A DNA stretch of 64,000 nucleotides from Thalia democratica (lineage: Eukaryota): the NCBI GenBank assembly GCA_965202585.1, contig OZ241829.1, positions 14,880,001 to 14,944,000 of the forward strand, in the 5' to 3' direction. Positions 11,001-35,358 of this stretch are shown one piece after another (position 1 is the first letter of the stretch; each line of letters opens with the position of its first letter). Under the pieces are notes generated by a model that saw only the letters and a program-made list of their open reading frames with translations, made no database searches and was not told where the DNA came from. The translations under genes and the position numbers were made by a program.

Positions 11001-11120
11001 TAATCTTTAACTTTTTTTTTTGTTTTTATGGTTACTCTACTAGTAAATTTGACTATTACTATTTAAGAGTGCTCGATTTACATGTGTAAAGAGCTAATAA
11101 TACAAATAGAGTGCTATAGT

Positions 11121-11187
11121 TTATTTTGTTTAACAACAGCTGTTTCGAAAGACAGATAGTCAATCTCTTCAGGCTTCAACAAAATAA
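11121..11187 (-). ncRNA. Inverted copy of the same hammerhead ribozyme at the PLE 5' end
   Basis: Exact reverse complement of 13814-13880. Confidence 0.8.
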
Positions 11188-11248
11188 GAATAAGCACGTT
11201 TTAGGCAACTATTAATAAATACAATAACTACACATTTTACTATTGATA

Positions 11249-13417: not shown

Positions 13418-13813
13418 TATAACAAATGTTCAAATTAGGGTTTTGAATTTTGAGTTTTATTTGTTGTTTTTTATTATTTTGTTAAATGTTAAATATTCCG
13501 TTTCAACTCAAATTCATGCATTGTGTTTAACCATTACTAGTTAATATGTTGCTTTTTAATGTTTTGTTTTATTTCGAAGTATATTAAGAATTAAAGCCAA
13601 TCTTTAACTATAATCAAACATTCTGATATTATTATTATAATTACAATACAATATATTTTTCTAATTGCTAACTTAATCTTATCAAAATAATTAACAAAAA
13701 GCATTTCTCCTTACTCTCTCTTTTTTCTCTCTCTTTTTACTTTCATTTACTTTCTTTTTACGCATGAATAGTTATTTTGTATTTATTAATAGTTGCCTAA
13801 AATGTGCTTATTC

Positions 13814-13880
13814 TTATTTTGTTGAAGCCTGAAGAGATTGACTATCTGTCTTTCGAAACAGCTGTTGTTAAACAAAATAA
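13814..13880 (+). ncRNA. Type I hammerhead ribozyme in PLE 3' repeat
   Basis: Stem I TTATTTTGTTGAAGC / GTTAAACAAAATAA; core CTGAAGA (13829-35); stem II GATTGAC-TATCT-GTCTTTC; GAAA (13855-58); palindromic stem III ACAGCTGT; predicted cleavage after GUU at 13866. Confidence 0.8.
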
Positions 13881-13900
13881 ACTATAGCACTCTATTTGTA

Positions 13901-15390
13901 TGGTTTACTCTACCAACATTTTGTTGAAAACATGGTTTAATAGTGAAGCTTTGTTTGTAAAAAGCAGCTTGTACCTTAGTTCAAACCCTACATAACAAAA
14001 TAATATAATAATTTTGTTTTAATAAATTTTTTGTAACAGGTTTCTTTAAAAAAAGCTATAACATTAGAAGTTTTTTCTATAATTAGTAAATTGAAACATT
14101 TCCAGAAAATGAGTTTACAAAACTTTTTTTAGTGAGTTTTCCAAGTTTAGTTTCGAGGTCACATTTTAAGTTTAGACAATGTGTACACTTTGATCAAACT
14201 CATAAAGTTGATGAAGCAGCCTTAAAATTTCAATTTGGATTGCCTACAGAATTAATTCCAATTAAAAACTATGTAGCTGGGGACTGTTTGTTCAAGGCTA
14301 TATCCAAGTCACTATATGGTACTAAATACCATCACTAAGACCTAAGACTCTAAGTTTTTATTTGGATGTTGCATAATAAAGAAACTGCTGTCCAAATTAA
14401 AAAGAAAATATATTTCTCTGGATTTGGTTTCTCTAAATTATCTTTAGTGACAGATGGGGAACAAGCTCTGATAAAATTAGTATACAAAATATTTCCTGAC
14501 AGTTTAAGGTTTAGATCCCAATTTAAAGATTAGATGAAAGTCTAAAGTTTAGTCTTAAAATAAGAGGATAATATACAATTTTAGGAAACTAAACAATAGC
14601 TTTAGAAAATAAAATACTAATTTTTTTTCTAACTTAGTAATTATTTGTAACTAGTAAAGTTTTTTAACTTATTTATATTATAATATAGAATTTAACTGTT
14701 ATATCTTAAACTACTTATTTATTCTGTTGTGAATTCAAGAAGATAAATTTGTCTGATATAAGTTTGTTTGTCCTATACTGTTTTACTCTTTAATAAAACT
14801 TTTTAGAGGTAATTAAAAACGACTGAAACCATCAAACATTCAAGCAAAATTCTTATCTGACGATAAAAAGCTATCTTAATTAAAACCGCATATACATTGA
14901 ATGATATCTCCTTACATAGCTGCTGACTAGTAAGGGAATGCAGGTTCAAGCAACAGGGTATTATAAAAGAATTAAATGAGACTAGTTGATTAATTGATAA
15001 AAAAGTCTTTAAATCCATGAAGTTTATTGACTGAACTGCAACTTGTTATAAACAAAACTGAAGTTAAAAAGTTAGAATTTTAACAGGGAGAAATTAATAG
15101 TTGTTCTAAGCAAACTTCAAACAAAATTCTTAGCTGAAGATAAAAAATCTTTAGTAAATAAATAATTAAACAATCACAAGCAAGAAAAAAGGCTTCGATT
15201 GCTGACTTTTAAGGAGTAAGAATGCGTGTTTTAACAGGTTGCTTGATTATAAAATTAATAAAAATGTCTGTTACGCCACACTAATTAACAGCATTGCTGG
15301 TTAATAAAAAACACAAAATTTTTTGAAAAAAAATGTCTACGAATTGATAATAACTCTTTTGAATTTGTGCTAACTAAAACTGTTGTAAAA
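13901..15390 (+). pseudogene. OTU/vertnin-like remnant copy 2 + module C (paralog of 1990-3500)
   Basis: ORF 14132-14338 reads VDEAALKFQFGLPTELIPIKNYVAGDCLFKAISKSLYGTKYHH. Confidence 0.65.
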
Positions 15391-15721
15391 AAATTTTAAG
15401 AAGATAGATTAGTCTGATGCAAGTTTGTTTGTCCTATATTGTTTTACTCTTTAATAAAACTTTTCAGAGGTAATTATTAAAGATTAAAACCATCAAACAT
15501 TCAATCAAAAGTCTTGTCTGACGAAAGCATTACTGTTTGTTAAAAAACACAAAAGTAAAAAAATATTGAATGCAGTAGGTATATTCTATTGAGCATCATA
15601 CTGAATAACATACTCACTACTTGTTCCATGGTTGCCATAAGTTTTGGCAAATTTTCTCTAGGTTTTCGAAATTTCCTTTAGTTTTTTAAGTACACCTATT
15701 GGGACTATTGTTAGTTTAAAG

Positions 15722-16440
15722 CAGGGGTTGCCAACCAGGGATGCAAGATTGCTTATCATTTTTGTTTGATAAATAAGGAGATTTCACTCTCTGATAAAGT
15801 TTATAAAGTTAAAAAGTACATTTTGTTATAAAAAAAAGTTAGCGCTAATTTTCTGAATAAATTAATTTTGGAAACTTGAACCATTTATAAACCATTTAGA
15901 AATAATATCCAAGTCATTTGACGGATATTTTAAAATAGGAGAACTGGAAATTTCTGGAGAATGGATAATAAATCCATATTCTTTTAATTTGAATCACATG
16001 TCCGATGATGAGTCGTTAAAAGATGAACTTATTGAATTATGCATTTCTCAAAATGCAGTTTGAAAGCAAAACTCTTGAACAATATTGGTGTTGTTGAATG
16101 AATATGTTTCAAAAACTTGGTGAAAAAGCACTAAGTACTCTCATTCCATTCGCGACGACTTACTTGTGCGAGTCTCTGGATTTAGTACTATTTTGTCAAT
16201 AAAAACTAAATCTAGAAACCGCTTTATGTTTAATTGTTATGTTTTTAAATTTACAAGTATTTTAATTTTGTTAGTATAGTACACTATCATAAAAATCAAA
16301 ATACAAATTATGAATAAATGAAATCAATGACTTTAAAATCAAATTATTAATAGATAATTATGGCATATAGCGTTAGGCGGTGCGAGATCAAATTAAGAGA
16401 CTTTAGGGGTGCGGGGCATTAAAAAGGTTGGGAACCACTA
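15722..16440 (+). mobile_element. Internally deleted hAT (Buster/Charlie-type) transposon
   Basis: Ends CAGGGGTTGCCAACC / GGTTGGGAACCACTA; 8-bp TSD GTTTAAAG / GTTTATAG with central TA; transposase C-terminus LGEKALSTLIPFATTYLCES..FSTILSIKTKSRNR. Confidence 0.88.
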
Positions 16441-17289
16441 GTTTATAGTAAAAAAAAATGTATTAAATAGTTTAAAAGCATTGAAAAGACACTGTAAAGC
16501 TACTTAAAATGTGATTTTAATAAAAAAAGTTGATGATGACATAAAATTTTCATCTTGATTTCTACTTAACATGCAAAAACTGTTTAACAATTGTAGGTTT
16601 TTCCAAGATTGGAGGTTTTTTGGCAACCCTGTCTTAAATTTTTTTTTCTGTTATTTTTAAATTAAACAAAACTATTTGAATTCAAGATTAAAAAATTGGC
16701 TAAAAAATATAGTACTTATTTAACATAATTATATAGTTGATCGTTTGCTCAAGCAACCGCTAAAACTACGACTAAACTAATTTAATATTTTCAGTATAAA
16801 ATTATTTTAAGAAGTTTAAAATCTTACTAACAGAGTCAATGCGAATAAGGTAAAAAAGAAACAAGTAAACCTTAAGAGATTTTTTTATAACTTTTCTTTC
16901 AATAATTATAACTTAATCCAACATTTATAAAACAGAAATCTACAGCAAGTTGACAACTTTCAATTGCAATAATTTACATATTAATAAATGGATGAAAAAT
17001 AGGAGAAATCTAGAGTAAAAGTGCTGAAAAAGACAGCAAAGAAAATTCTTGATAAAGTAGTATTTAATATGTCAATAAAAAATAATTGGTTTCACACTCA
17101 TTAAATATTAAATTTCGGTGAAAATTTGACTTAATAAAACAATCTAATAAATAGGTTACAGTTATTTGAACGTTAAAAAAAGTAAAAATTGAAACTCATG
17201 CAGTAGCGTTATAAACTTAAACAGTTTAGTTACAGATGTATCTACTAAAACAAAAATGAGAAGTTTAAGAAATAATACTATTAGCACAG

Positions 17290-17822
17290 TAGAAAAAAGG
17301 AAATCGAGTTTAACACTAAATGGTAAACAATGACAAAATCACATCAAAAAATTTAATACCTAAAGCATTGATTGGTTTGTAGCTTTCCACTTTTGTAGTA
17401 TGTAATTTTTGTTTAAAAGATATATATTTATTGATAAATCGTGTAAAATTTTTTATTTTTAAAAACTAATTTTGACAGGAAGAGGGGTTAAACATCCCCC
17501 ATCTCTAAAGGTTATTGTTGTACGTGTTGCCGGGACTTTATTAAATCCTCAGCAATTGAAGGTAAAAACGAATTCAACAAGTAAAATAAAGATGATACTT
17601 CGTTTTAGTTAATTTCGAAATAGGAAACGCACACTGGGGAGTTGATGCCACTGAAGAGAATGGCAGTTTGATGTTAAACCGCCAAAACCAAAACTGCCAA
17701 ATGAAACTGAAGTGGCGTATTATGCCTGACAAGTTTTCTTGAATTCAAGAACTTGCCTACTTTATGGCATCAGCTGACATAGTCATAGGAGAAGAGCTGA
17801 TATGGAGCTTCGTTGGGAGACC
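17290..17822 (+). pseudogene. SET-domain remnant, copy 4 (best preserved; intron 17375-17478)
   Basis: Splicing ATTG|GTTTGT...TTTGACAG|GAAGAGGGGTT gives IGRGV; then HWGVDATEENGSLMLNRQNQNCQMKLKWRIMPDKFS*IQELAYFMASADIVIGEELIWSF in one frame. Confidence 0.78.
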
Positions 17823-19379
17823 AGTAGTTTCAAACTAAAGTCTCAGCCTTGGCTAAAAATTTAAACTAATCATTTGTAATTTTGACATTATAATTTTTTG
17901 AAAGCCCATTGTTACCAGAAGAATTTTTTTTTTTAGTTTACAAGTTAAAATGCTACTGTGAAAATAGCAACATTAGACAAATTTCCCGCCACCTAAAAAT
18001 AAGAATAAAAGATATTGTTCCAAAATGTATTACGTATTACATCAGTGACAAAAAAGATAAAAAGAGCGTAGCAGTCAAAATGCAATGAGAAAATCAGCTA
18101 TAGCTGAAGAGATACAATCATGAAGGCAAAAAAGAGAAACATCGCTAAACTATAAGAATAAAGTAGACCATATAATCAACAAATTTTTAAGTATTTTGTT
18201 ATCTTTAGATTACTGTTAGTTATTTTAACCTAAATGTAAAACAAATTAAAATATTTAAAGATACAGTCATGAAGACAAAGAAGATAAACATCGTTAAAAG
18301 AGACATATTAAGGTAGACCAATAAGAATCTGCACCAACATATTGTAACTAATCTGAACAATTATCATGAAAAAAAATTGACTAAGAGTTTAATATTGACT
18401 TATTTCATTTACTTTTATATTGTAATCAATTGTAATTGGTTTTTTTAATTAAACATGATGTTTCTGATAATAATACTCAAAAATGTACTACTCTTGATGT
18501 TTATCAAGTGTTATCGGAGCTCGCACTCAAAGCAAAACTACCTTATAGAGATGTTTAAATGACTAACAGATTCATAAAATGAAATGGGCAGTCTACTGGT
18601 TTGAAAAATATGTTTGAATAATGGAAAAGATGCAATCTATGCTACAGATGAATTAAATAATACAAAAACATCTTTTTTACAAAAAGATCTGGACCACTGT
18701 CAAATAATCCCAGCCACTTTGGGTAGTGATTGTTTATGTACTAGAAATTTATCTAGTCAATAATATCTTAGCTAAACAATCAAAAAACTTAAAGTAGATA
18801 TTCTAGATTATGAGTAGACGGTGATATAATAATAAAATATTTATTAAACAAGCAATCGCCTACAATAGTTGATGTTTAAAACAAATGTTGACATAAGTTC
18901 ATAAAAGCTGGTTGTTTTTAAGGTAATACTGAAAAAATGATTACTTTAAATAAAATATAGTAATTTAATCAAACAATTGGCAGTAAACAAAGGAAGGATA
19001 ATTTTAAGTATTTATTTGAATATTTTGTTGAAAAGTGCTGAAGGCGACTGCAGTTATCCTAAACTGCATGTTGTAAGCGAATTACATCTCTAGAAAAATA
19101 TCTTAAACAATGATAAAATATTTTCAAAGTAAGGAATGTCCTAAAAATTTGTTATTGTAATTACTACCAAATACAATGTTATTCAAATGATTTAGATTTT
19201 TAGTGTGTTCTCTAAGCTAAGTAACAAAAATAAATTAATGTGTAATTTTAGTGAGTTTAAAGATGATGATAGTATAAGTTCATGAAAAACAAAAAAATTT
19301 AAACAGATACAATAAAAAAATTTACATATTGAAAATATAAATGAATGAAAGAACGATAAGAATGTATTAAAACTTAAAA

Positions 19380-20760
19380 ATCAGTTCATGCTTTGAATAA
19401 CATTTCCTTACATCTGTTGATGACTGGTAAGGGAATGCAGTTTTAAGGAAGTGGCGTATACAAAGAGAAGAAATATGGTCAGCTAATTAATTGAATATTC
19501 TTCATATTAACGAAGCAAGTACATGGTTACATCACGATTCAAATTCAAACAATTCAGTTTCTAAAATAAAAATAATTAAAAGACTATATCTCAAAAAGTG
19601 AATTAAATTTGACTAAAGTAAAAAATACATATGTAAATCTTATTAAAATCTACAAGCAATTTTTTTTTTTAAATCTTAAATATTTTTTAAGATATTTTAA
19701 AGTTACTACAAATATTTTTTTTTATATAAGCCATCTGTCAAAAAATAAATAATGTTTTGCAAAAAGAAAAATATGGCTTGTAGATCTTTGTAGGACCTAC
19801 ATATTAATTTTTTATATTTGACAAATATACATTACTTTTTTAGTTATGGCCCTTTCAATTTTTACTTAAGAATTTGAATTGTCCAAACTTGAATTACCCG
19901 AATTTGAATAATCGTGCACCCCAAGAAGATTGACTTAACTGCAACTTGTTATAAAGAAAATTTGAAAAAAAAAAGACTTTTAATAAAGAGAAATTACCAT
20001 GACGTATAAGCAAATCAAGTCTGTTGTTAAAAAACTCAATATAAAATAAAAAAACATCAAAAAAGTTAAAAAATGTCTTTTGCTGAATGTTAAAAGATAA
20101 AAAAAAGGAAGGTTCAACCAGATGCTAAACTTTAATATAAATAAACACAATTAACTGGTACCCCACACTAATTCACAATCTTTAAAAATAATATAAAATA
20201 TATAAATACTAACACAGCATATTCTTATGTGATGTCACTGTAGAGAGTTATTGAAAAATTTTCATCCTTTTCTAGTTCGAAAAAACAGAAAATCTTCTAA
20301 CTTCGGTCAGAAATTGACTAAATACAAGCACGTCGATGCCTGCAGTCACATCAACCTCCTGCTTTGCTACTCTAAATGCACCGACTGCTCCTTAAGATTT
20401 CCTAACGTCAAATTTGATCGCCTGAACTTTTTGTGCGAGAAACTGAGAAATTTATAAAAATTTGCAATATGTCTTATATCATTTCTGCATGGTACCAGAA
20501 ATTAAATATTGAAAAATCTTTTAACAAACTTAAAAATTATAATGTTGAAAAGTGGCACACACCTAGAATACGTTATGAAGAAAATAAGTAGTGAACATGA
20601 CACAACTATCTTAAAACGAACAAAATGTACAAAAATTGCAACTAACACTTAGCATTTTTGTTCAGAAAACTAATTACAACTGATTTGGTGGGAAAAAGTT
20701 GTAGTTTTTACATAGATAAAAGCACAGATAAATCGGGATGCAGTTTTATAGCTTGTTGAT
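19380..20760 (+). mobile_element. Module C + hAT subfamily B N-terminus, with an insertion of about 400 bp (approx. 19523-19930)
   Basis: Reads ILKRTKCTKIATN...LVGKSCSFYIDKSTDKSGCSF. The insertion ending ...AATCGTGCACCC splits the GAAGCAAGTACA|TTGACT site that is intact in other module C copies. Confidence 0.7.
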
Positions 20761-22559
20761 TTTTGATAATCTTTTTTTTTTTTGTTTTTTTGATATAGTG
20801 ACTGCAGTAAAAAGAGTGAAGTTTGATCAAACAACTCTTTAATAAATTTGTTAATTGTTGTAAATTTTAAATTAACAATTTTGTAGTGAAATAGTTAACA
20901 AAAATAGTTAATTATTGTACAAAATACTTGGTTTATAATAGAATTCTTAGGAGACAGTTACATTTTTTATTTTGTCACTAGACAGTTTAGAGTATCTTAA
21001 CTATAAATCATATGTGTTTTTGTTTTAAGCATTAATATTAAGATTTTAATATATTTTTATAATCAGAACATCATGGTGAACAAAACAGGTTATTTTTATT
21101 TTCTTTCAAACTTACAGTTATTTGTGTATATTTTTGGCAGTTTGGCTTGCTTTTATTGTAAAATTTTGTATATAAACCAGAATATGCTTAGTTATAGATA
21201 GATATATTTGTTTAAACATAAATTCATCTATTCAAGTAAAATGTGAAAATATACATATTACTATGCTTGAATCTAGATTTGGTTTTAGTAATACTGTGAG
21301 AACTTAATTTAGAAAGGACTTCAAAAATTTTAGAATTTCAATTTTGTTTTTATAATAACTTTTATAATATTATAAAAATATTCTTATGTTTGGGGCTTCT
21401 TGTAATGGGCTTCTGTTTTAAATACAACACAAAATATAAAAAGTAGTTTGGACAGTTGTATGCTGGTGTGAGCATATACATAAGCAGATTTAGTAAGATA
21501 CTGTTTCCACGTTTCCATATTTAATGCTTTGAATTGACTTAACTTATGGTTTTTTTTTATTAAAAATAAAATTGTGTATAATACAGTAGCAATCTTTAAA
21601 GATTACTTTATTGTTTATTTAAACCGAATATCGTAAATATTTAAACAGAATAAATTTTGATAACCTTTTTTAATTAAGAAATAGATAGCAAAAGATAGTG
21701 TTCCATTTCAACTAGGATTCCAGAACATTGGTTGTAAAAGCGGTGTAAATATCTGGAGCTGAATTGCTATTTAGAGTACATTCGTAAAAACAAAGTTATG
21801 TCTAAATATTGGAAACAAAGCCTTGAAAATTTGAAGTCAATATTTTTAATAAGCGTTTCGCCAACATTGTGCACTCTTTAACAAAGTAAAACTTGTGCTC
21901 CAAGTCTGAAGGTTGTGCTAGCATTGGAAATTTAGATTTGGTAAATGTTAAATGTTTGCATTTAAGTTCAAGAACTTTAAGCGAAAAGAATATCGTTTGG
22001 ACGAGTTCTATTTTGAACATTGAAAGGTTATCAATTTTCATTTACTCCACCGGCGTAGATTCACCTACAATAGCTTCAAGTATAATTTAAACGAATATTA
22101 ACAGTGGCTGGCTGTTGTTAAGTAAGATGCTGAAAACTAAATAGTAAAAAAAGAAAACTATCTATTTTACTAACTTTTTAAACACAAATGAAACTTTTCA
22201 AAAGCATTTGTCGAAGACAAATGCCTTCTATTTACCAACTTTTTATTTTTAATAAATTTTGTCTGAATTGACATATCCATATCAACATCAAGTTTATCAC
22301 AAAAGCATGATACATTATTTAAAGAAAGTATTAAAAAGGCAAAAATTCAAGTTGTAATAAATAAAAAGCCATATGTAGTAGTTACCTTCATTCAATTTTT
22401 TGTTATACAGTGTCGAAAGATGAAATTAAAACACTTCAGGGAAAAATTATATAGAAAACATCTTAGTACAGCTGTATTAGTCCAAGTTTGATTTAATTGC
22501 TGAGTATATTCAGTATATAAGTTTTATGCGAAGCAGTGGCAAATATCAAACCTAACATA

Positions 22560-24930
22560 ATTATCTGCAAAGATATGTCCACGGATAAGCATTAATGGTG
22601 CATAATGAAAAACCAAATGAGATGAAAAAGAGTTTCTTTGAAAGGGATTGGATAAAGACTTTTGACTATCTAGCTGCCATAGGAGTGGAAGTAGGCATTA
22701 GCATGAATACTTTTGTCAGGAATGATAATGAATTCCTGCTGAAAAGTCTTTTAGAGTACAACATATAGTTGGTTTTAAAACCTTGTAGAAAAAGTTAATA
22801 CACCTTTGTCACATACATGATACCAAGATAACAGGAAATGAAATACTGTGAATGCAGCTTGTCTAAGAATGATAGAATTACAAACTTTTTATTCTCTGAT
22901 TAGGTTTCATTTGACAGTAACAGATTCGAAAACTTGATAAAGGTCCCGCAGTTGATACCGAATTACCATAATAAACCTATAAGGAGTCCTATTGAAAAAA
23001 AGTTAATGTCAAAGATGTGTAATCTAGCCTTTCTTGCTCATCTTAAGGACAAAACCAGCACAGAGGAAGCAATAACCAATACACGGTACGTGACAATAAA
23101 AGTACTTTAAATGGATAAAGACGGTTCCATGATGAAATTAATCAAAAAGTTTATAAAGATGACAATATCAAGGTTGAAACTGCTTGCAAGCCTAATGATT
23201 GCACTTCAGGTTGGAGATCATCTGTTTAGGGAGGTTGGAGAAGATGCTGTGTGAGACATGAAACACCCAATATTTGGTGATCCCATGGACCAGCCACAAA
23301 ATATTATTTGCAGCTTTTATGTAGGGTACTTCAAGGATAAAAACATTAAGAACAAACAAAATGCTGAGTATGCATTGGCTGGCAAACTGGCACTGGCAGA
23401 AGAAAAGTTGGAGAGTTGCGATCCTGAATTTTTAGGTGATAAAGGCAATTAATCTTTTAACCTTAACAGAGTTTTACCTTAAAAATTTTGTTGCCCGTGG
23501 TGCGATGACAAAGAAAATAATAGCACGGAATCATAGCGGTGACCCTGACATCAAAATAGAGAGAACAATAGATCATTATATGAGCAGGATATCATGAGAT
23601 GAACTTCAGACATCAAGGCATATAGTTCATTCATTACAGATAAGACACGGGAAAGCAATAAAAAAGCAGATCGAGAGCCATGGTCTCCGTTGCTAAAGTT
23701 GCAACAGACGATGAACAATAAACCCATTTATGAATGCTTGGGTGGATTACTTGAAATGTTTGAAAACAAGATGGAATACTCGTTGATTTATTGAATGAAC
23801 ACCAGAATGGGGGTAATGATTAAATATATGTTCTGGATGGAATATTCAGAGTCATACAGGCTATATGCGAAAGAATAGATAAATCAGTGTGCAGCCTTCT
23901 TTCTTCAGAGATCATGACTTACCCAAAAAATAAACAAAAACTGCAGACTGATCATCACAGCAAACCCAGACAGTACTTTGACAAGCCGTGCACTTATGAA
24001 TTCTAGCAATGATTTTCAGGGTTGTGTCACACTAACTTTGTCACCAAAAAATGACAGCATACATGCTGTCAGTTGTTCCTAAAAAGTAGAGAGATTTTAT
24101 AGAGAGGGCCTTTTCCATGTGAAAGAAGAAATAAATTTATCTTCAGACAGGCTTCTGCAATAAGCTCATAAATGATGTACACAAGTGTAAATTAAAAAAG
24201 AGAGAGTTAACATGATCATGGAAGCATACAGAGGGGATTGTACATTCTATTAGATGAAGAAGGAAGGTTTTGTCTATACAGCTCGTTCTGGCATGATGCA
24301 AGGAAATCCTTATTTTTTAGTCATCATCCTTTTACGTTAGTTTCACTATAACAAATAAATGTCTTGAAGTGAACCTGATTGGGAACTACCCAACAAGGGA
24401 TAATTGATAAATTTGAGGACAAATAGGAAAAAAAAGAATGTCTTTCAACCTTGGGGAAAAATAGAGAGGCAAAGTGTCAACAATACTATACTGTTTTGCA
24501 TCAGGTTCTTGATAATGTTTCTTACATTGACACAGTGAGAGATGTACAGTTTGGTCAGATGCATGTACATTACAAATCACTAGGAAATAGTATAAATCAC
24601 CTATTCCCTGACATGATGACTAGAATGGCAATGACAACAGCTCCTGACATGGGTTGGTTTCCTATAGATCATCCTAATGCAGTTGGAGTATTTGGGCTCA
24701 ATTACATTATATACAGGAAAATTATGTCAACCAAGATATTCAGGAGGATATTGACAATGGCAATTGGGAATAAGAGGAAAAATTTTGAAGATAGAAATTC
24801 TTCATAAAACATCAGGGTTAAAATTGATAAAGGGAAGAAACTTCAGGCTTTAAGAGACTAAATGGATGAAATAACTGAGTATGTAAATAAAAAAGTCAAT
24901 GTGTACTCTGGCAGCAGGCCTTGGTGAGCA
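22560..24930 (+). pseudogene. L: Endogenous viral element: decayed bunyavirus (Phenuiviridae-like) L protein / RdRp gene fragment
   Basis: Collinear L motifs: IGVEVGISM...EFLLKSLL (~22679); KDKTSTEEAITNTRY (~23045); HPIFG..Q.IICSFYVGYFKDK (23258 ORF); HQNGGND*IYV...RVIQAICE.I..SVC..L.SEIMTYPKNK (premotif A/F, 23797-23935); MNSSNDF.G.CHTNFVTK (motif A, ~23996); SGMMQG (motif B, 24287-24304); QFGQMHVHYKSLG...PDMGWFPIDHP..VGVFG (24451 ORF). Many stops and frameshifts. Confidence 0.88.
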
Positions 24931-26841
24931 TTTCACCTTTTACTTTATCCTAGTTGTTGCCTCGATGAGCAGTAATATTTTGTTTTCAAGTTGTACATTT
25001 ATTTTACATTTATTGTTTTTAGCATGCTTCAGAAAGTTAGATCTTCAATTAGATCTAATTTGAAACATTAAAAAAAGAAAATATTGAATCTCTACAGGAA
25101 TTTGAGCTAATTGAAAAAAAAGTAGTGGTAGTATAAAGTTTATGTCTTATTTCAGTAAAAATATAAATTATGCCGCTAAAATACACCAAACAAAATTTGA
25201 TCACAATTGAAAAATATTTAACAGACCAAAAAATGGTTTTTAAGACTTAAAAAAACAAGTTTGTTTGCGAAATCCTCGAAACATTTATAAACAATTATTT
25301 TAAGAATATTAACAATATACGATATAGTAGTTTATTTGGTAATTATTGTGTCCCAAATTAAAAAACAATACGCATAAACTACTAAATACAACAATAAACA
25401 ACATAAACTGTAAAGCAAAACTACTATTCAACAAAAATCAGATAATAAAAATAGTTGAATGTAGTGCATAAATATCAATAAACCATAAGTAAGGATCTTT
25501 TCAATCCATATAAATTTTTTGAAAAGGATCTAGCCGGATACAAATCAATATAGCTATAAACTAAGTTACATCTAGATTACAATTTTTTTTTTGGAAAAAT
25601 ATCATTTCTAAAACAAACAAATGTTCAGCTCCCAAACAACTTTTCATAAATTTGAGAAAAATAGAATTCAATATGTTTAGCAATAAGAAATTATTTGAGA
25701 GGAAAAACATAATAAAAAAGTTAATGTAAATAGTTTTCAAATTACACAAAATAATGAAAGTGTCATAGAATGTATGCAATTAAGGAAGGAAAATAATTTC
25801 AACCACAAAATAAAGAGAAATTTAATCACAAATATTTTCTGAAGAATCAAATCAAATTACCTCTGTATTGTCAAATTATTTAATCATTTCAAATAAATTC
25901 ATTTTCTTTAATTGACATTGAATAAATGGCTTTAGCAAAAGGTAATGTTGGAAAAATCTGCAACTAAAACTTTGGTACTTTTGCAAGAATTGTTTCAAAA
26001 CCAAAAAAGACATTAATATAAAATTATATAATAATTTATAGTTAATACCACAACAACAGATGTATATTTAATTTTTTTAATAAATAAAGCAGATTGGCAA
26101 AAACTTGATTTAACCTATGTTTACTAATGTATCAAATGTTATATAGCTATCATATATGAAGTTAAAAATATCAGAAACAACATACCTAGTACTTTTTAAA
26201 AAAAAAATTTAATTATATTTTTTTTATTGAACAAAACTTATTGATTTCAATGTCTATAAAACTATTTAAAAATATAATATTTTTTCTGCTTGTAATGCTC
26301 ATGTTTTAAAAACTCTCAAGCCTAAATTTTAGTTCTATGAATACACAAGAATTCATAAACGAAACAACCTCTTAGATCTGACAAAACTGCTTGATCAAGG
26401 TGTTTCTCCTCATCAACCACGCTCAATGAAAGGTGTCTCCCCTCTACAGCAACAAGAATGAGAGGATATTGTTGGTACATGAAACCAGGTGAGCCAACAA
26501 GGGGTGGATCAATTTGCTAGTCCTTTTGACCAACTTGGTACTTCTTGAACCTGCAAGTAAATTGTCTTAGGGTTCATAAAAGAAGCAAAATATTATTAAT
26601 AATATATACATTTTTTAACTAGTAATTAAAGATTTTTGTTATAAATTTTATGAAAACTTTTTAAAATATTCATTAAAATTCTGGATATTATAACAAGTCT
26701 ATATAAAGTTTTATTACTGCTAAGAAAGTTGAACCAAATTAACCTTTAGGTTTTGATTTATTGTGTTCCTTTTTTTTAATGAACACATAATAAACAATGA
26801 ACTTTACCGCAAGATCAACAACAACAGCATCCGAGACAATC

Positions 26842-26880
26842 CTACGACCGGTTTCGTCCTTATTAGGACTTATCAGGCAG
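26842..26880 (-). ncRNA. Minimal type I hammerhead ribozyme, probably inactivated (PLE/retrozyme remnant)
   Basis: Minus strand CTGC-CTGATAA-GTCCT AATA AGGAC-GAAA-CCGG-TC-GTAG: perfect stem II, palindromic ACCGGT stem III, GUC site; core G8 mutated to A. Confidence 0.7.
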
Positions 26881-27917
26881 AAATAGTCGCGAGAAACCGC
26901 TATTGTGATCTTAAACAAGCAGGCTTAAGTACTAAGTACTGAAGCGACTGTTTGTGGGTAAATTTGAAAAAATGACACAGCTATATCATTCACAGCTCAA
27001 CGTCTCAGACACCTTAGTCCAAACTATACATTGTATTAAAGGCTAACAAAAAAGGCTTATTAGCCAGCAAAAATAAGAAAACATCAATAAATTATTTTAG
27101 ATTTTTGGTATTTTTTATAAAAATATAATGTAAATCAGTACATCATACTATATATATATAACTTAATTTACAAACTTTGGTAATTTTGACATAATTAGAT
27201 TTCATACAAAAAAATGCTATGGAAGGTAAAACTTTTTTTAAATTAAAATCTTTAAAAAATTCGTTAAAAAGCTGAAGCATTACAAAAAACTTGAGTTGTA
27301 ATTATTTTAAAATTCAAAGGAGACTCATCTAAGGCCATAAGGGGTTTAACCATTTTTATTACTAAAATCAACTTTAGTCCTTAAATGAAAGCTTAGTTTA
27401 TAAACTAAGAAACTTTTCACAAAGTATATAAATTATTAAGCTTTTGTAACATAGTTAATTATGTAAAACGTTTCTGATACAAACATAAAAAAAAATTTTT
27501 ATATTGCTGGTTTTCTTGGAATTTTGTAAAAAACTATTAAATCGTTATTCTCCTTTACTTTTTATCAAATAAACTTAAACTTTCATGTAATATTTCTTGC
27601 ATTTATAGAAAAAGGCCCACTCTAATGATATTATTAAAATTTAAAAAAACTTAAGAATTTGATGACTGATAAGTAAAATAGCAAATCAATTTTTTTAGAA
27701 AATGAAAATCTTAATTTAAATTATAAACTATTAAAATAGCATTGTTTTAACTTATAAGTTTCAGAACTATTGATTAAAAACTGTAAGAGGAGAAAGATTT
27801 CTAATAAATAGTCTTATTTACATTGGTACTTTCATAAGGAACCTATTAAACTCTCTAACTATATAATCTTATTAACGAAAACCAGTTTGATATTTACTAA
27901 GCGGTAAAATGCAACTA

Positions 27918-29056
27918 CAGTAATCTCTCGCTTATTTACGCACATTGTGTCCACAGAAAAAGTTTGAAAGATATGAGAGATCGTAAAGATACGAGAGGTA
28001 CCAAATATACTTACTATAATGGCTGTTTTTTTATTTTGCTTCTAGTTAAAAGCAGACTGGGGACTTTCCCACTTTTAACAATTTGTTTACTTTATTTATA
28101 AATATGAAATCAAAATATAAAACTCTACATATATTAAAAAAAGATTTAAATTTATATAAAATAATAATACTTGTAGAAATACATAATCTAACACTTGAAA
28201 CTATATAAAGCTGTTTAAAATCTTAATAGAAAATTTTTGCAGTTTTATATTTTACCAATTTATACCAGATGAAGGCTTTGGAAATAAAATTTATAAAAAT
28301 TGTAAATTTCTAGGTAAATTTTGGAATTTTTTTTCTGACTTTTAAAAGACTTTTAATTAATTTTCACCATTTGAAGGCTTTGGAAAACAAGGAAGTTTGT
28401 AAATTTAAACTGACAAAATCTGATTTTTTTTTTAATTTTATCAAATTTCATGACTTTTCCTAACTTTTTTTCAAAACCCCCCATTTTTTCCTGACTTTTG
28501 TCATTTTTTTTTAATTTTTCCTGACTTTCTTGATTTCCTGACTTTTCCTGACCGAGTGGCAACCCTGCAATAAGTATATTTTATTTTTATCTTTATTTAT
28601 ACGTGACTTATTTGATAATTAACATTTATAATCTATTCTACTTAGCAAATTCAATTTATAATTAAACAGTTGTTTACAATTAAGAAATAGTGTCTATATA
28701 TGTCTATGTTAACATTTTAAACTCTCATTATTTTATTATACTTTCATTATTTACACAGTTATATTACTTTCCAAAACTTAATTTAATATCTTATTATTAA
28801 CAAAATTATTGATATACTGAGGTATAATAAATGTTTATCAATTAGTCAAGAAACATAAATTAACAAAGTTTAAAAATAAAGAGAGGTGAGTTAACATTTA
28901 AAAACATACTTTAAATTGAAAATATACAATAAACCTAATTTGTGCAATATTAAAATAAATTTTAATTTTTATATTTTGAATTTTTAGAACTCTAAAATGC
29001 GTAACTAAACGAGAGTGCGTAACGTCACGAATGCATAAAGATGCGAGAGGTTACTG
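27918..29056. mobile_element. pogo/Tigger-like (Tc1/mariner) non-autonomous element with nested MITE fragment
   Basis: TIRs CAGTAATCTCTCGCTTATTTACGCA / TGCATAAAGATGCGAGAGGTTACTG, flanked by TA on both sides. Confidence 0.75.
28250..28567 (-). mobile_element. Partial CAGGGTTGCCACT-type (hAT-like) MITE nested in the pogo-like element
   Basis: Ends GAGTGGCAACCCTG at 28567 with short TTTCCTGAC repeats; other end not found. Confidence 0.6.
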
Positions 29057-29699
29057 TAGCAGATAAGTTAAAAAGCTTTAAATAAGATTAACATGTAAAA
29101 AATAATTTTCTTCTGGTACGACTTTAAACTATATTAGTTTATATATTTTTGTTTGTAAAAACTTTCATTTTTAACTAAGTCAAAATAAAATAGATATTCA
29201 ATTTTTGAAGAGGTTTAATACAAAGAGGATCTCAAAAAGAATATTTTTGTAGTGTAAATATGCTGTTATAAAACAGAAAAGCATACATGAATCAACTGCA
29301 GAAGTTTAAGTATCTCAATGGGCTGTTGGGTGGAAATTTATTTTTTTGTGACTAAATATAAACTAAGTTTTTTATTATATTTGGTAGAGCTTAGTTCTTC
29401 ATTTCGTAACTATTTGCTTTTAAAGTATTCTAGGAGTAAAAATTAAATTTCTAATGCTTATTTTTTTTTTGTAAAAAATACTGAAAATGCTACATGTTTA
29501 ATGTCAAAACTAAGGTGTTTGACAACTACACAAAGATACCTGAATTAATCATATATGATTATTCTTTATACCAGCTCTATCTTTTTGGCTTTCTGTTTTT
29601 GGAAATATTGAGTTGTGAGTATTTTTTGTAAGTAATTTTTACTTTTATAAAAATTAAGGGTGCTTTTAAAGAATTTCAGGATGTACTCAAGAAAAGAAC

Positions 29700-29876
29700 A
29701 AGTCACTTTTGAACAAAATGTCACTTTAACCAAAGTGGTAACATTTGCACAAGGTTAGAGTTAGGGTCTGGCTTAGGGTCATAGTTAAAGGTTAAAGCTA
29801 GGGTCCTTGTAATGTGAATGTGCAAATATTACTGCTTATGGAAAATAACCCTTTGAGCAAAAGTGACGACCTACCC
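29700..29876. mobile_element. Small MITE with internal TTAGGG-like repeats
   Basis: IR GTCACTTTTGAACAA (29702) / TTGAGCAAAAGTGAC (29853); ends CTACCC like the element at 46.3-46.8 kb. Confidence 0.5.
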
Positions 29877-30007
29877 ATTAAGGACATATAGCTCTACAAC
29901 TAAGCATCCCTATATTACATCTTTGTTTATAAGTACACAAGATAATCTAAAAATATATATAGTGAATTATGTCTTTTGAACAACCAACTTTAAGGTTTTT
30001 GTAAGCA

Positions 30008-30436
30008 CAAGGTTGCCACTCGTTTTTTCCAAATTTTTTCCAGGTTTTCCAAATTTCTTCCAGGTTTTTAAAAGTATACATTTTTGGGTCCATTTTAAGT
30101 TAGTTAATTTCTATAAAAGAAACTGTGTTAAATAGTACAAAAACATTTAAAAGATGCTATAAAGTTACTTTAGGTGTGTTTTTTAATAAAAAAATTTTTG
30201 ATGATAACAAAAATATCTTATTTATATGATAGATTTTTTGTGTCAAATTGAAATTTTAGTACTGAAAAGGTTAAAATTATTAAAAATTCGAGGTTTTTTG
30301 ATCAAGATCCCAGGTTTTTCCAGGTTTTTTACAAAATTTCTCAAATTCCAGGTTTTTCAAGGTTATGTTTGCCTAAATTGTCGAATTCCAGGTTTTTCAA
30401 GGTTTTCCCAGGTTTCTAGGTAAAGTGGCAACCCTG
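30008..30436. mobile_element. hAT-like MITE with 6-bp TSD
   Basis: TIRs CAAGGTTGCCACT / AGTGGCAACCCTG; TAAGCA duplicated at 30002-30007 and 30437-30442; internal CCAGGTTTTT repeats. Confidence 0.8.
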
Positions 30437-31239
30437 TAAGCAAAATCTTAATTTTTTTATGTCTATTAATTTAATTTCAAGTTTTTAAATAGCTTAAACA
30501 ATTATTTTCCATAATAACTATATCAAACAAGAGAAAATCATAATAAAAAACAAATTACAGGTGTCTGTGTCTGATTCTTTTTGTTGTGCTAGCAAACCAT
30601 TTTTAGATATAACTTATAGATAATTTTGAGTAAGTTGAACTGACCATCTTCAAAATTCAACAACTTATGAAATTCTTAACAATAAAATATAAAGTATAAT
30701 TTTAAAAGGACCTCATTTATGAACCATTCAACTAATTTTGTTATGTTTTTATTGCCATGTCAAATCAAAAATGTCAATATCTGCATTAACCCACTTTCTC
30801 AGCTCACTGCGCAACATCATCAATGTATTTACTTCAGCTTAGTTATTAGTACATTGTTTCAGCCTTTTATTAAGTAAAAAAGTCAGCTTCAGTCAGCCCA
30901 AGTTGGTTAAAAATTAAAAACATTTTTTGAGCTAAATACTTTAGCTACTTTTTGAGCTAAATATAAACTTTAGAATAGTTAAAATACAAATTTTTATACA
31001 CTTATTAGATAATTTTACCTTTATAAATAAACACAAACTTTCATACACTTATTAGATAAATTTAAATTTATACATATGATGATCTATCAGTTAATAAAAC
31101 TAAATCAGTTAAACTTTTATAAAGAAAATGTAATTATATAAGAAAGTTATTAAATGTTACTAAGTTACAGTGGAACAACAACTTACATACAGATATATTA
31201 CAAGTTTACTTACTTATACTTTATCATGTGTGAACAGCA

Positions 31240-31420
31240 TTCCATAGTAGGTACTTCATATTGTTGAGTGCAAGGAATTAATGTGAGCAAAGAAGGTTTA
31301 AGAATTCTGTGAGGATGTTTCCAATTTTTTATTAAATTTTATTAGTAGAAGAAAAGGGTTTTTTGGTTATCCAATTTAAACCAAGGTTGAACTTACGATA
31401 CTTTAATCCGTTTGTAGTAC
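31240..31420 (-). mobile_element. Decayed Penelope-like RT fragment
   Basis: Minus strand WKHPHRIL...FFAHINSLHSTI resembles PLE RT IW.H....L..F...INS.HP.IKFT.E. Confidence 0.4.
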
Positions 31421-33854
31421 ACTTGTAGTGATTACAAATAAAATTTTCATAAAGCAAAAACAAAAAAAATTATAAAACTAACCTTAAACTAATAAAACAC
31501 AAGAAAACGTTTAGATAAAATTCTAAAACTATTTCAAATTTGTAACATTATTGTTTGTTGAACGCCAGAAGAAAAGTTTAAAAATAGGTTTAAGAATTTT
31601 TTGTTAACTTAAACTCGTTTTACAAGTAAAGTATTGTTTGGGTTATACATTAGAAAAACGTTTTACTTTATAGTTTTTGAAAAATTACAGTCATAAAAAG
31701 GTTGTAGAAGACGTTTTTTTATTTGATCGATAAAACAGATCTTTTTGGGGTTATCAATAAATTTTTAGCGTAGTTTGCTTAAACTTTCAAATATAACAGT
31801 GTATTTATCTAATAGATAAACTTGGTGTTATAAAATGTTTTTTACACTAGACTTCTAAATTAAAACTTAAAATCTTGTCAACTTATAGGTTTTTTTTAAT
31901 CAAATTGAAAAAATATCTGAAACTTAATTATTTATATTGTTTAAAAAAGATTGTTTTACATTTTTAAGCAAAACAAAGAGTAATAGTGTGTTTTTATCTT
32001 TAAAGTAATTAATTTTTCAAAGTTCATTCTTCAACAAGTAAACAGTTCCGGATTGTTTTAAATACACAAGAATTAATATTTTTAATTAATTCTAAAACGC
32101 ATGAGAATGATTAAAGCATTTGTTTTAAGTTGCTTATGATTATTATGTTTTGACCTTTAATTTTGTTAAATTTGTCCTCCATATACATTAGTACGTTAAT
32201 CTGTTAATTCAGCTTATCTTAATTTTTGGAAGTTTTTTACAAGTAAAGTAATTAAAACTAAGATTTTTTTTTGAAATTTAAAAGTTTAACAGAAAAATTA
32301 ACGTTTTTTGTAAGATCGTTCAAAAAATTTAAAAAAAGTCTTAAAACAATATAAAAAATTTTTATATATACTAAGTGTAAACAGCTTTGTTTAACTTTTG
32401 TTTTTAAACTTCTAATATAGCCATGCAATCAAAAGGAACAAAACAAATATTTGTTTGTTTGAGTATTTTAAATTTAACCAATTACTGAACTAGTTTATAA
32501 TAAAATTAAATAATATTGATAATGGAATTTATAACTTTTAATAAAATTCTTAACTATACTTTAACTTAACAAGTTTTCAATTTAATAAAGATTGTTTTTA
32601 CATCCCGAAAAAATTATCAAGTTTAGTATTTTTTCATAAGCCATAATAATTAACAAATTCACAAATATTATACTGATAGGTATACTTGTTAGAAAGTGGT
32701 ATATCATTAATGACGTAATAAGTTAATAATTTAGATAAATATTAGGTTAGTACTAATGAAAACAAGAAATTTGCCATCAAAACTTAGCCATCAAAAATAA
32801 ATTAGATACCAAGTAAAATAAAACTACTAAGTATGAGTAAGGTACCAAGTAAAATTAAGCTACCAAGAAGAAGTTAGCAATTTAGTAGGAGTTAGCTACT
32901 TAGTAGAAAGTAGCTCAAATTAGAGTTACTTTCAAACAAATAGTTTGCTTTTAAGATTGAGCTAGCTTGCGAGTAGGAGTTATTAGGTACCAAGTATGAG
33001 GATCCTACCAAGTAAGAGCTAGCTACAATGTTTTAGTTAGCTACCAAGTAGTAGTTAGCTACCCATTAAGATTAAACTAAAAAAATAAGTAAACTAACAA
33101 GTAGGATTAAGCTACATAGTAAGAGTCAGCTATCAAGTATACTTCTATACTAATACTAGGAATCAATTTCATAATTAGTAGCTAACTCATATTTTGTAAA
33201 AGCTCCTACTTGCTTGCTAACTCTTATTTTGTAGCTAACTCATACTATTTAGCTAATTCTTACTTCGTAGCTAACATATACTTATAGCAAATTTCTACTT
33301 GGTAGCTATTTCAAACTTGTAGCTAACTTCTACTTGGTAGTTTACTTAAACATTATAAGTAACTCCGACTTTGTAGCTAAATTACCCTCGGTAGATGTTT
33401 TAAACTTTTCAGGTTATATCCCGATGGCTAACTAATTATTAGTAGCTATGTCCTGATAAGTAGTTAAAACAACCTTAGTAGCTAACTTTTACTTGGTTGC
33501 TAACTTATACTTGTTAGCAACTCATACGTAGTAGCTAATTCAGATTGATGATAACTCTTACTATTTGTTTAGCTAACTCTGACATTTTTGAGTACTACTA
33601 GGCTCACAAATGTTAGCTTTTAATAAAGTCATTAACACAAATTAACCTACGGTATAAACATAATAATTATTTATACATAAAGAGGTTAGCTGAATCAATA
33701 ATCTTTTCAGAAAAAAAAAGTTAATAAATATAAGTAGAAAACAAAATCTCAATTACTAATTCTTACTAGTCACCATTTAATGCTCATAACTTTATGAATT
33801 AAAATATAGATATCACTTGTTAGATATATCCTAATTTATAAACATAAGCAATAT

Positions 33855-34046
33855 TACAACTATCACATAACAGTAGATCGTAACATTACAACTGTCACAT
33901 GACAGTAGATCGTAACATTACAACTATCACATCACAGTAGATTGTAAGAATACAACTATCACATTACAGTAGATCGCAGCTATACAACTTTCACATCACA
34001 GTAGATTGAAATAATAAAAACTATCACATCACAGTACATTGCAATT
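33855..34046 (+). repeat. 32-bp minisatellite, 6 copies
   Basis: TACAACTATCACAT.ACAGTAGATCGTAACAT starting at 33855, 33887, 33919, 33951, 33983, 34015. Confidence 0.92.
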
Positions 34047-34699
34047 ATATTCAATAAATTATAGAAATGCTTAGTTTTTTACATATTGCATTTGACTTTC
34101 CAAATCTTAATTCTTAAAAACCTTTGTTTTACAGTTAGTCAACAAGCATATAGAAATATAATTATGTAATCCTATAACAACTCTAAAAATTACTAAAAAT
34201 TTTAATAAGTTGCGTAAATACTTGGATGCTAACTGCTATTTGGTAGTTAACTACTACTACATTGTAGCTAAATCATCGTTTGTAACTATCTCATACTTGG
34301 TAGCGAAATTATACTTAGTACCTAACTCTTACTTGGTAGCTAACTGCTATTTGGCAGATAACTCCTACTTTTAGCTTACTTACTCATTCTTGAAAGCTAA
34401 ATCATACTTTGTAGATACCCTTAGTAGATTAACTTATACGCGTAGTTAACTCACCCTTATAGCTTAATCATACTCGCTAACTAACTCCGACTAAGTAACT
34501 AACTAATGATTGGTAGCTTACTTGCCTTTGGTAGCTAACTCTTACTTAGTAGCTAACTCAAGTTTGATAGCTAACTATCCCTTAGTAGCTAACTCAAACT
34601 TGATAGCAAACTTAAACTGCATTGCTAACATAAATATTTAAACGAACTTTTTTTTGTCAATTGTTAGTAGCTAGCTCGCATTAGGTAATTAACATAAAT

Positions 34700-35358
34700 T
34701 TTAAACAGATTTATCTATGTCAATCATTAAGCTAGAACAAAAATGAAATTGAAAAGTGTTCATCATTATACTAGTTTTATTATAATGTTTTCAGATTGAT
34801 CAAATTTGAAAAAACTTAAAAAATATAAGTACAAACATTAAGAATCGTGCAGAAAACCTATATTACGAACAACTTAAGACTTCGGTTTTTAAGATGAGTT
34901 CTTTAAAGTGCGGGCAGGAATAATAGGCCGATACTTTTACCTGCTTTTCAAAAAGCTTCCTAGTAAGAGTTAGCTACAAAGTACAGTTTAATGTTTGTGT
35001 TGATTTTTACCATCGCATATATAGATTAAATTACGTTTAAGAGTGGAAAAATATAAACTTATCATAGTCATTTCTGCTTAAACGATAATAATATGTATTG
35101 AAAATTGTTACTGAGAATCTTAGCATTTTCGAGATACCTACAAAACACCCGAAAACAAAGTAATTTTAGATAAATATTTAATATCATAAACTTTACTAAA
35201 AATTTCCTAGAGTCGTTTTCATGTTTGTAGTTATAATTTTAAAGGCTTTTCAAATTAGTCAATCTGGAAAAATTATGGGAAAACTAAGGTATTAGTGAAC
35301 ATTTTCAGGTTCCTTTATTGTTCTAGCTTAATGTTTAACAAAGATAAGGCTTTTAAAA
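34700..35358. repeat. Old diverged inverted repeat (arms about 34700-34822 and 35237-35358)
   Basis: CATTAAGCTAGAACAA...TTTTCAGATTGA.CAAATTTGAAAA versus TTTTCAAATTAGTCAATCTGGAAAA...TTGTTCTAGCTTAATG; flanking satellite blocks are also inverted. Confidence 0.8.

What the first reader, a model, noticed from the sequence alone, without database searches (positions are those of the whole stretch)
22560..24930. Endogenous bunyavirus (phenuivirus-like) L polymerase gene in a probable cnidarian genome
Seven collinear motifs match the L protein of Phenuiviridae-type negative-strand RNA viruses, including premotif A/F (Q.GG..EIYV...R..Q...E), motif A (SS.D...W....FVTK), motif B (GMMQG) and the downstream Q...HY..LG...P..G.F..D.P...G..G block. 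Stops and frameshifts plus AT-rich host flanks show that it is an old integrated fossil. Established: these viruses have no DNA stage, so a retroelement RT must have copied the RNA; PLE and LINE RTs occur in this window. Inference: this is a fossil of a divergent, possibly undescribed bunyavirus lineage that infected this host's germ/stem cells, and a possible substrate for piRNA antiviral memory.
Basis: partly seen in the sequence, partly recalled or inferred. Interest (0 to 1): 0.88.

Follow-up and report, generated by a model that had tools for sequence, protein, structure and literature searches.

The report
Bunyavirus fossil in a tunicate genome
A broken 2.3-kb piece of a phenuivirus-type (bunyavirus) polymerase gene sits in three duplicated copies on a chromosome of an animal whose mitochondrial code marks it as a tunicate, not a cnidarian; it likely records an old germ-line infection of these closest invertebrate relatives of vertebrates by a still unnamed virus lineage.

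Summary
Window 22580-24897 is a decayed endogenous copy of the central third of a phenuivirid L polymerase. It matches 201 database proteins (best E 3e-16) and nests among named phenuivirids, sister to two unnamed metagenomic proteins. Catalytic motif C (SDD) is deleted in all three copies. The copies are passengers of a tandem segmental duplication and drift neutrally (pN/pS 0.8-0.9).

The host is a tunicate: its mitochondrial COX1 reads AGA/AGG as glycine. The PLE and LINE in the window are younger than the fossil.

The genome holds about 13 independent negative-strand virus insertions: phenuivirid N (one 7 kb from an L copy), rhabdovirus N and mononegavirus L. One lies inside both LTRs of an active LTR family, which points to the likely capture route. 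A piRNA role is untested.

Phenuivirid EVEs are known from ticks and mosquitoes; my searches found none reported from a chordate. The scan earlier noted an EVE cluster and an LTR-captured viral gene elsewhere in this genome, labelled 'probably Hydra'. Verdict: new member of a known kind, in a new host group.

The parts
22580..24897 (+). Decayed endogenous phenuivirid-type L gene fragment, about L residues 500-1380. No endonuclease or C-terminal/cap-binding part was detected.
   Evidence: GC about 35% against 22-29% in the flanks
22580..23480 (+). N-terminal block of the polymerase core (about L 500-790), with in-frame stops
   Evidence: tblastn E 6e-19 with P0004; 133-bit HMM block
23767..24050 (+). 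Premotif A / motif F and motif A remnants, with a frame change inside motif A
   Evidence: 51% identity to P0001
24254..24304 (+). Motif B (GMMQG at 24290)
24305..24468 (+). Interval with an internal deletion of about 75-80 codons that removes motif C (SDD) and the neighbouring palm motifs; shared by all three copies
   Evidence: model 622-751 spans only about 165 nt in each copy; motif B to HY..LG is 92-93 codons in two copies against 141-190 residues in 132 intact L proteins
24469..24897 (+). Thumb-side block (HY..LG, G.F..D.P), including the longest stop-free stretch (126 aa)
24905..25390 (.). Right flank: old degenerate host repeat with a 66% identical paralogue on C7. It is not an empty insertion site.
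15392..60344 (+). Tandem segmental duplication unit that carries the EVE (other copies at G000:C5:14858.0k and 15020.2k) and an intronless Kelch gene
39303..40325 (+). Host Kelch-repeat ORF in the same duplicated unit
   Evidence: Kelch_1 E 1.6e-21; further copies
11100..13901 (+). Young Penelope-like element (729-aa frame, inverted terminal repeat); younger than the EVE
   Evidence: GIY-YIG hit on the 98% identical C7 copy; Pfam RT did not hit this ORF
40683..44341 (-). Young LINE (endonuclease + RT, 912 aa) inserted only in the window's copy of the duplicated unit

Best explanation
This is a non-coding, decayed copy of the middle of a phenuivirid L polymerase gene, present three times on one chromosome of a tunicate, and it likely entered the germ line when a retroelement reverse transcriptase (most likely an LTR element's, by template switching) copied viral RNA. 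Shown: viral origin, integration in host DNA, loss of motif C, stops and frameshifts shared by the copies, later triplication with a Kelch gene, neutral drift between copies, and the tunicate mitochondrial code. Inferred: that the virus infected germ or stem cells, which RT did the copying, and that the piece has no present function.
For: Viral origin. Tree: the three copies join P0001 (SH-aLRT 99.8) and P0071 (98.6) inside a 22-taxon clade (98.9) with termite, mantis and psyllid phenuiviruses, a goukovirus and Tibet bird virus 2. Integration: an 85.7-Mb contig; three copies whose flanks differ as much as the viral part (2.4-4.7% in the EVE, 1.8-6.2% in flanks); contigs of two public runs from two studies cover all 30 bins, and single records bridge the left (X1, 22253-22831) and right (X3, 24454-25785) junctions. 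Decay: 4 stops shared by all three copies plus 4 in one or two copies among 464 compared codons; pN/pS 0.93, 0.90, 0.78. Host: AGA/AGG at 13 of 15 glycines in seven COX1 motifs (their conservation is recalled), and nuclear copies of this mitochondrial DNA lie on chromosome-scale C4. Route: phenuivirid mRNAs lack poly(A) (PMC12641553). In this genome a mononegavirus L piece lies inside both 1251-nt, 99.9% identical LTRs of an abundant LTR family, beside a primer-binding-site-like stretch.
Against: No target-site duplication, poly(A), LTR or empty site was found at the junctions, so the RT type is an analogy from another locus. Trees contain only hits of the search itself, with no outside bunyavirus family as outgroup, and the EVE branch is long. 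Its exact sister genus is unresolved (SH-aLRT 26-56 at the next nodes). Run X1 may be the source sample. Kind and library of X1 and X3 are not on record. A GH6/cellulose-synthase search for a nuclear tunicate marker found nothing, but it also rang in no control genome.
Confidence: 0.85

Rival explanations
1. The locus is a virus-archiving (piRNA-cluster-like) region. It trapped phenuivirid RNA at least twice, an old L and a much fresher N 7 kb away, and would yield antiviral small RNAs as Aedes EVE clusters do. This adds to the best explanation rather than replacing it.
For: The N EVE at G000:C5:14849.8-14851.2k is on the same strand as L. It has two stop-free frames of 179 and 270 aa and 87% identity to P0174 over 180 aa, so it is far less decayed than L. 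On C6 a rhabdovirus N lies 0.7 kb from a phenuivirid N, and 11 of 11 binned TE-protein hits there are on the same strand. Around the three L copies all TE-protein hits are on the + strand (7, 3 and 4 binned hits). Two such pairs within 10 kb arise in about 1-2 of 100,000 uniform simulations. Salp piRNAs exist (PMC5174732, passages).
Against: No small-RNA or transcript data. The + strand hits near L come from only three TE families, partly tandem copies. The direct-over-inverted repeat excess also appears in 2 of 3 control blocks (34:2 and 179:2), so it does not discriminate. The simulation overstates significance: I chose the N and rhabdovirus families because they were neighbours, and the uniform null ignores gene-poor regions. 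The L piece has an estimated 9% decay, which would blunt matching to a living virus. It was duplicated as part of a block of at least 45 kb with a host gene.
Confidence: 0.25
2. A domesticated viral protein gene.
For: A 126-133-aa stop-free stretch is kept in all three copies.
Against: Motif C is deleted, stops and frame changes are shared by the copies, and pN/pS is near 1.
Confidence: 0.02
3. Assembly artefact: exogenous viral or symbiont sequence joined into the scaffold.
For: None found.
Against: Three diverged copies with co-diverging host flanks, pseudogene decay, and junction-bridging contigs in two studies.
Confidence: 0.01
4. The host is a cnidarian (Hydra-like), and the tunicate-code mitochondrion is a contaminant.
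For: AT-rich genome of about 800 Mb; an earlier scan note says 'probably Hydra'.
Against: Under table 4 (cnidarian) COX1 has Arg at conserved glycines. Three nuclear copies of this mitochondrial DNA, 75-80% identical over up to 4 kb, were checked, two of them on chromosome-scale C4. No second, cnidarian-code COX1 appeared among 9 matches (4 of the 9 examined).
Confidence: 0.03

Closest known systems
Phenuiviridae-derived NIRVS of Ixodes scapularis, Rhipicephalus and Aedes (PMC6580184; passages)
   Same: Integrated fragments of phenuivirid genes, including L-derived ones, beside rhabdovirus-derived ones.
   Different: The host here is a tunicate (chordate), not an arthropod. The virus lineage has no named member.
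Phenuiviridae L proteins (ICTV profile PMC12641553, whole text); nearest unnamed P0001 (ENA, 248 aa) and P0071 (JGI, 1643 aa); nearest named Coptotermes/Reticulitermes phenuiviruses, Fushun hierodula phenuivirus 1, Aphalara polygoni bunya-like virus, Diaporthe gulyae goukovirus 1, Tibet bird virus 2
   Same: Collinear core motifs and tree position inside the family radiation.
   Different: Only about 28-32% identity to full-length relatives over 390-465 placed residues, and 49-55% to P0001 over 66-97. Own long branch; motif C lost; no termini.
Unidirectional EVE-rich piRNA cluster of Aedes aegypti (PMC7161354; abstract and outline)
   Same: EVEs near TE fragments on one strand; the resemblance is stronger at the C6 locus than at this window.
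   Different: No transcript or small RNA shown here; few TE families near the L copies.
Tunicate-associated exogenous Bunyavirales contigs (bioRxiv 10.1101/2024.12.15.628590; abstract, introduction, section 5, passages)
   Same: Bunyaviruses occur in tunicate RNA libraries and group with non-vertebrate viruses.
   Different: That study reports transcripts from filter feeders and does not mention phenuivirids or an EVE survey in its main text (0 and 1 occurrences). Integration here shows real infection of the lineage. Its supplementary bunyavirus tree could not be seen and may hold a closer relative.
Vertebrate non-retroviral EVEs (PMC11521997; passages)
   Same: RNA-virus fossils in chordate genomes, including one Nairoviridae (bunyavirus) EVE.
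   Different: 'Phenui' does not occur in that text; tunicates were not surveyed.

Membership tests
Non-retroviral endogenous viral element (NIRVS) | Significant homology to an RNA-virus protein | tested here: met
Non-retroviral endogenous viral element (NIRVS) | Embedded in host chromosomal DNA with host flanks, seen in independent data | tested here: met
Non-retroviral endogenous viral element (NIRVS) | Integration scar or orthologous empty site | tested here: inconclusive
   no TSD, LTR or empty site found
Phenuiviridae (source virus) | L protein groups phylogenetically with family members | tested here: met
   nested among named phenuivirids, SH-aLRT 98.9 and 93.9 without P0001; no outside-family outgroup was included
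Phenuiviridae (source virus) | Phlebo/tenuivirus-type nucleocapsid protein | tested here: met
   N-like EVEs: Tenui_N E 4.4e-4 and 1.4e-6; model of relative P0173 (mean pLDDT 56.8) matches SFTSV N Z 8.0 (rmsd 6.0, 174 aligned) and RVFV N Z 7.1 (rmsd 3.4, 140), next row 4.3; BFVD top named rows are phenuivirid N. That N and L come from the same virus lineage is inferred.
Phenuiviridae (source virus) | Gn/Gc glycoprotein (not in all members) | tested here: inconclusive
   PF07245 had no candidate in G000 and rang in no control
Phenuiviridae (source virus) | 2-8 RNA segments with conserved complementary termini; cap-snatching endonuclease | not testable with these tools
   the fossil covers only the core; ends and endonuclease are not detected
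Functional RdRp gene | Intact frame with motifs A-E including SDD | tested here: not met
EVE-bearing piRNA cluster | Antisense precursor transcript and phased 1U piRNAs | not testable with these tools
   no small-RNA data could be laid
EVE-bearing piRNA cluster | Same-strand array of TE and EVE fragments | tested here: inconclusive
   all hits on the + strand but from few families near L; clearer at C6; repeat-orientation measure not discriminating
Tunicata (host) | Mitochondrial code 13 (AGA/AGG = Gly) | tested here: met
Tunicata (host) | Nuclear cellulose synthase with GH6 domain | tested here: inconclusive
   nothing in G000 and nothing in any control

The most novel reading that the evidence does not exclude
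This tunicate runs a mosquito-style archive of RNA viruses. LTR elements write phenuivirid, rhabdovirid and other negative-strand RNA into one-way TE arrays (C5, C6) that feed antiviral piRNAs. The L and N fossils would be the first record of Phenuiviridae in a chordate germ line, from a tunicate-specific lineage with an unusually long N (at least 458 aa in relative P0174). EVE-based antiviral memory would then extend to the sister group of vertebrates.
Probability: 0.25. Interest if true: 0.8.

Novelty: new member of a known kind. Interest (0 to 1): 0.5.

Why it matters
Bunyavirus reads in tunicate RNA could come from food or symbionts of filter feeders. A germ-line fossil shows that a phenuivirid lineage truly infected tunicates, and the several N sub-lineages (27-87% identity among the N-like proteins compared) suggest that it did so repeatedly. 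The family includes human and livestock pathogens and was thought to cycle mainly through arthropods, plants and fungi. The genome also holds a young example of viral RNA captured inside an LTR and candidate one-way EVE clusters. One small-RNA library would test directly whether EVE-based antiviral memory exists in invertebrate chordates. The L fragment itself is an ordinary dead pseudogene.

Tried and rejected
Bunya_RdRp family search in G000: no match even to the known copies, so too insensitive. Word-index homologue search with the 126-aa piece: nothing, and limited to 222-2000 aa. A longer-relative search with P0001 could not be made, so closer members hidden behind that 50% cluster representative remain unseen. 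P0001 in viral contigs and P0173 in metagenome contigs: no relatives. Further phenuivirid L insertions in G000: three queries returned only the three C5 copies (counts are lower bounds). Glycoprotein and GH6 searches: blank, with silent controls. No RNA holder listed among public runs: no evidence either way. The C7 paralogue of the right flank as an empty site: rejected, its other side scores at shuffle level against the left flank (114 vs mean 134). Rfam: 0 matches in the window. Relaxed tRNA scan near the EVE: noise only. Direct/inverted repeat ratio as a cluster signature: rejected, controls show it too. ESM Atlas on the Kelch ORF gave no host clue. IQ-TREE with ultrafast bootstrap timed out. 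Support labels printed are shifted by re-rooting; the correct ones are. One block was in the wrong frame and was corrected. How close organism B's allele is to the third copy could not be measured directly. Literature searches with no report of tunicate EVEs: 0 papers; 0; 3 papers, 2 listed, neither on topic by title and abstract start; scan notes, 0; for cnidarians searches listed none on topic. The library omits most subscription papers.

Full report
Observation. With stops read as X, one frame hits Pfam Bunya_RdRp (E 3.3e-4, under the curated cut-off). Two separate pieces hit solved L proteins as their best matches. A full HMMER scan of 1.84 billion representatives returned 201 proteins at E<=1e-3 and 28 at E<=1e-10. 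Most of the 150 listed are 2000-3100 aa long, the size of bunyavirus L proteins. Of the 28 of these that I looked up, 14 carry virus-polymerase names, all phenuivirid or phenui/bunya-like; the other 14 are unnamed or 'hypothetical'. A profile of 138 of the 150 (12 lacked my anchor motif) maps collinearly to 22580-24897 and to nothing on the minus strand.

Anatomy. The fossil covers about L residues 500-1380: the front of the core, premotif A/F, A, B and the thumb-side block. The window copy changes frame at least four times between supported blocks. Between motif B and the HY..LG block there are 92-93 codons in two copies, against 141-190 residues (median 170) in 132 intact relatives. No frame there reads SDD in those two copies, and none does in the window. 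The third copy has the same short interval (166 nt between model 622 and 752). Catalytic motif C was therefore lost before the copies separated. No endonuclease or C-terminal part was found here or elsewhere in the genome. No TSD, poly(A), LTR or empty site marks the ends.

Copies and age. The element occurs three times on the 85.7-Mb contig C5, inside a tandem duplication of at least 45 kb that also carries an intronless Kelch gene. Copies differ by 2.4%, 4.7% and 4.3%, and their flanks by 1.8-6.2%. In 464 compared codons, 4 stops are shared by all three copies and 4 more occur in one or two; pN/pS is 0.93, 0.90 and 0.78. About 4.5% of single changes make a stop here. My hand estimate is about 6% decay before the first duplication (rough Poisson range 2-16%) plus about 2% after. 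It is a lower bound because the blocks were chosen for recognisable homology, and there is no clock for years. Contigs of run X1 (organism A, possibly the source) and X3 (organism B, another study) cover all 30 bins, and single records bridge each junction. Of 31 listed differences inside the EVE (the tool showed 40 of 332 overall), X3 is fixed for the non-window letter at 26. The third copy carries all 26, and 10 of them are specific to it. Organism B thus has the insertion in a state like the third copy. Whether B is another species is not known.

Host. The assembly's mitochondrial contig carries a COX1 that reads sensibly only under table 13: AGA/AGG stand at 13 of 15 glycines in seven motifs such as GGGDP, FGHPEVY and LGGITG (conservation of these glycines is recalled). 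That is the tunicate code; cnidarians use table 4 (established knowledge). Nuclear copies of the same mitochondrial DNA at 75-80% identity, two of them on chromosome-scale C4, tie it to this lineage. The host is a tunicate. Class is not determined. The 802-Mb size is near published values for a salp (602 Mb estimate) and Botryllus (about 725 Mb) (PMC5174732, passages).

Which virus. On 475 columns the three copies join P0001, a 248-aa ENA metagenome fragment (SH-aLRT 99.8), then P0071, a 1643-aa JGI protein (98.6). They sit within a 22-taxon clade (98.9) that holds termite, mantis and psyllid phenuiviruses, a goukovirus and Tibet bird virus 2. Removing P0001 keeps P0071 as sister (98.7) and the clade (93.9). 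The IQ-TREE runs used 61 of the 150 relatives; FastTree on all 150 gave 0.99, 0.97 and 0.80 for the corresponding nodes. Identity to full-length relatives is about 28-32%. It is an unnamed lineage inside the phenuivirid radiation, with the caveat that no outside family was in the tree.

Context. Reading beyond the window showed a Tenui_N-like insertion 7 kb upstream of the second L copy, on the same strand. A genome search found 10 matches at 8 places, about 6 independent after merging duplicates. The family's fold is phenuivirid N (model confidence moderate, pLDDT 56.8). ENA metagenome proteins P0172-P0174 are its only database relatives found. Beside one N lies a 461-aa open rhabdovirus N frame (E 2e-44). 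Rhabdovirus N occurs at about 4 independent places and mononegavirus L at 2. In total there are about 13 independent insertions.

How it got in. Phenuivirids have no DNA stage, and their mRNAs are not polyadenylated (PMC12641553), which makes poly(A)-primed LINE capture less likely (inference). The window's LINE and PLE are young and post-date the fossil. At C7:31.96 Mb a mononegavirus L piece fills most of two 1251-nt, 99.9% identical repeats that begin TG and end CA on the minus strand. They keep 300 nt of an abundant non-coding LTR family (2194 candidates) and are followed by a tRNA-complementary stretch. LTR-type capture of negative-strand RNA therefore occurs in this lineage. I take it as the likeliest route for the older L fossil, by analogy only; no trace of that family lies in the 264 kb around the L copies.

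Function. As a protein gene it is dead. As a small-RNA source it is untested. For: N and L of different ages lie side by side, different viruses lie side by side on C6, and all TE hits near them are on one strand. Against: few independent TE families near L, a biased clustering test, a non-discriminating repeat-orientation measure and the decay. I give it 0.25.

Known and new. Phenuivirid NIRVS are known from ticks and mosquitoes (PMC6580184, passages), and one-way EVE clusters from Aedes (PMC7161354, abstract). A vertebrate survey lists a nairovirus EVE and does not mention phenuivirids (PMC11521997, passages). A tunicate virome study found exogenous bunyavirus contigs but reports no EVE survey in its main text (supplements unseen). 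A flatworm study treats its phenui-related viruses as exogenous (passages). Searches found no report of such elements in tunicates. Two earlier scan notes from this genome describe an EVE cluster and a reovirus gene in an LTR. They are unchecked AI notes, and the first one's 'probably Hydra' conflicts with my test. Verdict: new member of a known kind, in a host group where I found none reported; interest 0.5.

Noticed in passing
G000:C5:14849800-14851230 (L025:2829-4230): Phenuivirid N-like EVE 7 kb upstream of the second L copy, two overlapping stop-free frames (179 and 270 aa), set inside a local repeat unit; much fresher than the L fossil.
   Followed up: yes
G000:C6:67108000-67136000 (L052-L054): One-way array: two phenuivirid N pieces, an open 461-aa rhabdovirus N frame (67128074-67129456) and 11 of 11 binned TE hits on the same strand. 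Unassigned ORFs at 67109295 (-) and 67133395 (+).
   Followed up: partly
G000:C7:31964348-31968127 (L090-L091): Mononegavirus L fragment inside both LTRs and the interior of a young non-autonomous LTR element (repeats 99.9% identical), abutting a 3'-truncated Penelope-like element.
   Followed up: partly
G000:C1:23095298-23100500 (L088): Long, broken mononegavirus L EVE with RdRp, capping, connector and methyltransferase domains.
   Followed up: no
G000:C8:63719196-63720685 (L031): Divergent phenuivirid N-like EVE (398-aa open frame, Tenui_N over cut-off) on the strand opposite to a dynein heavy-chain-like gene, apparently between its exons (dynein label recalled from the translation).
   Followed up: no
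P0174 (ENA) and L030, L034: The N family has a long N-terminal extension (at least 458 aa in P0174) compared with about 245 aa in phlebovirus N structures.
   Followed up: partly
G000:C5:14830543-14831460 (L021:543-1460, -): 306-aa open frame with no Pfam match, 19 kb from the N EVE.
   Followed up: no
G000:C4:56.84-56.95 Mb and C757 (L071-L073): Old nuclear copies of mitochondrial DNA, 75-80% identical to contig C1833.
   Followed up: partly
window 26787-26980: Extremely high-copy short repeat (summed contig depth above 600,000), inserted only in the window's copy of the block.
   Followed up: no
window 32780-37120: Array of short repeats in both orientations, with a 407-nt near-perfect palindrome at 36167-36573.
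   Followed up: no
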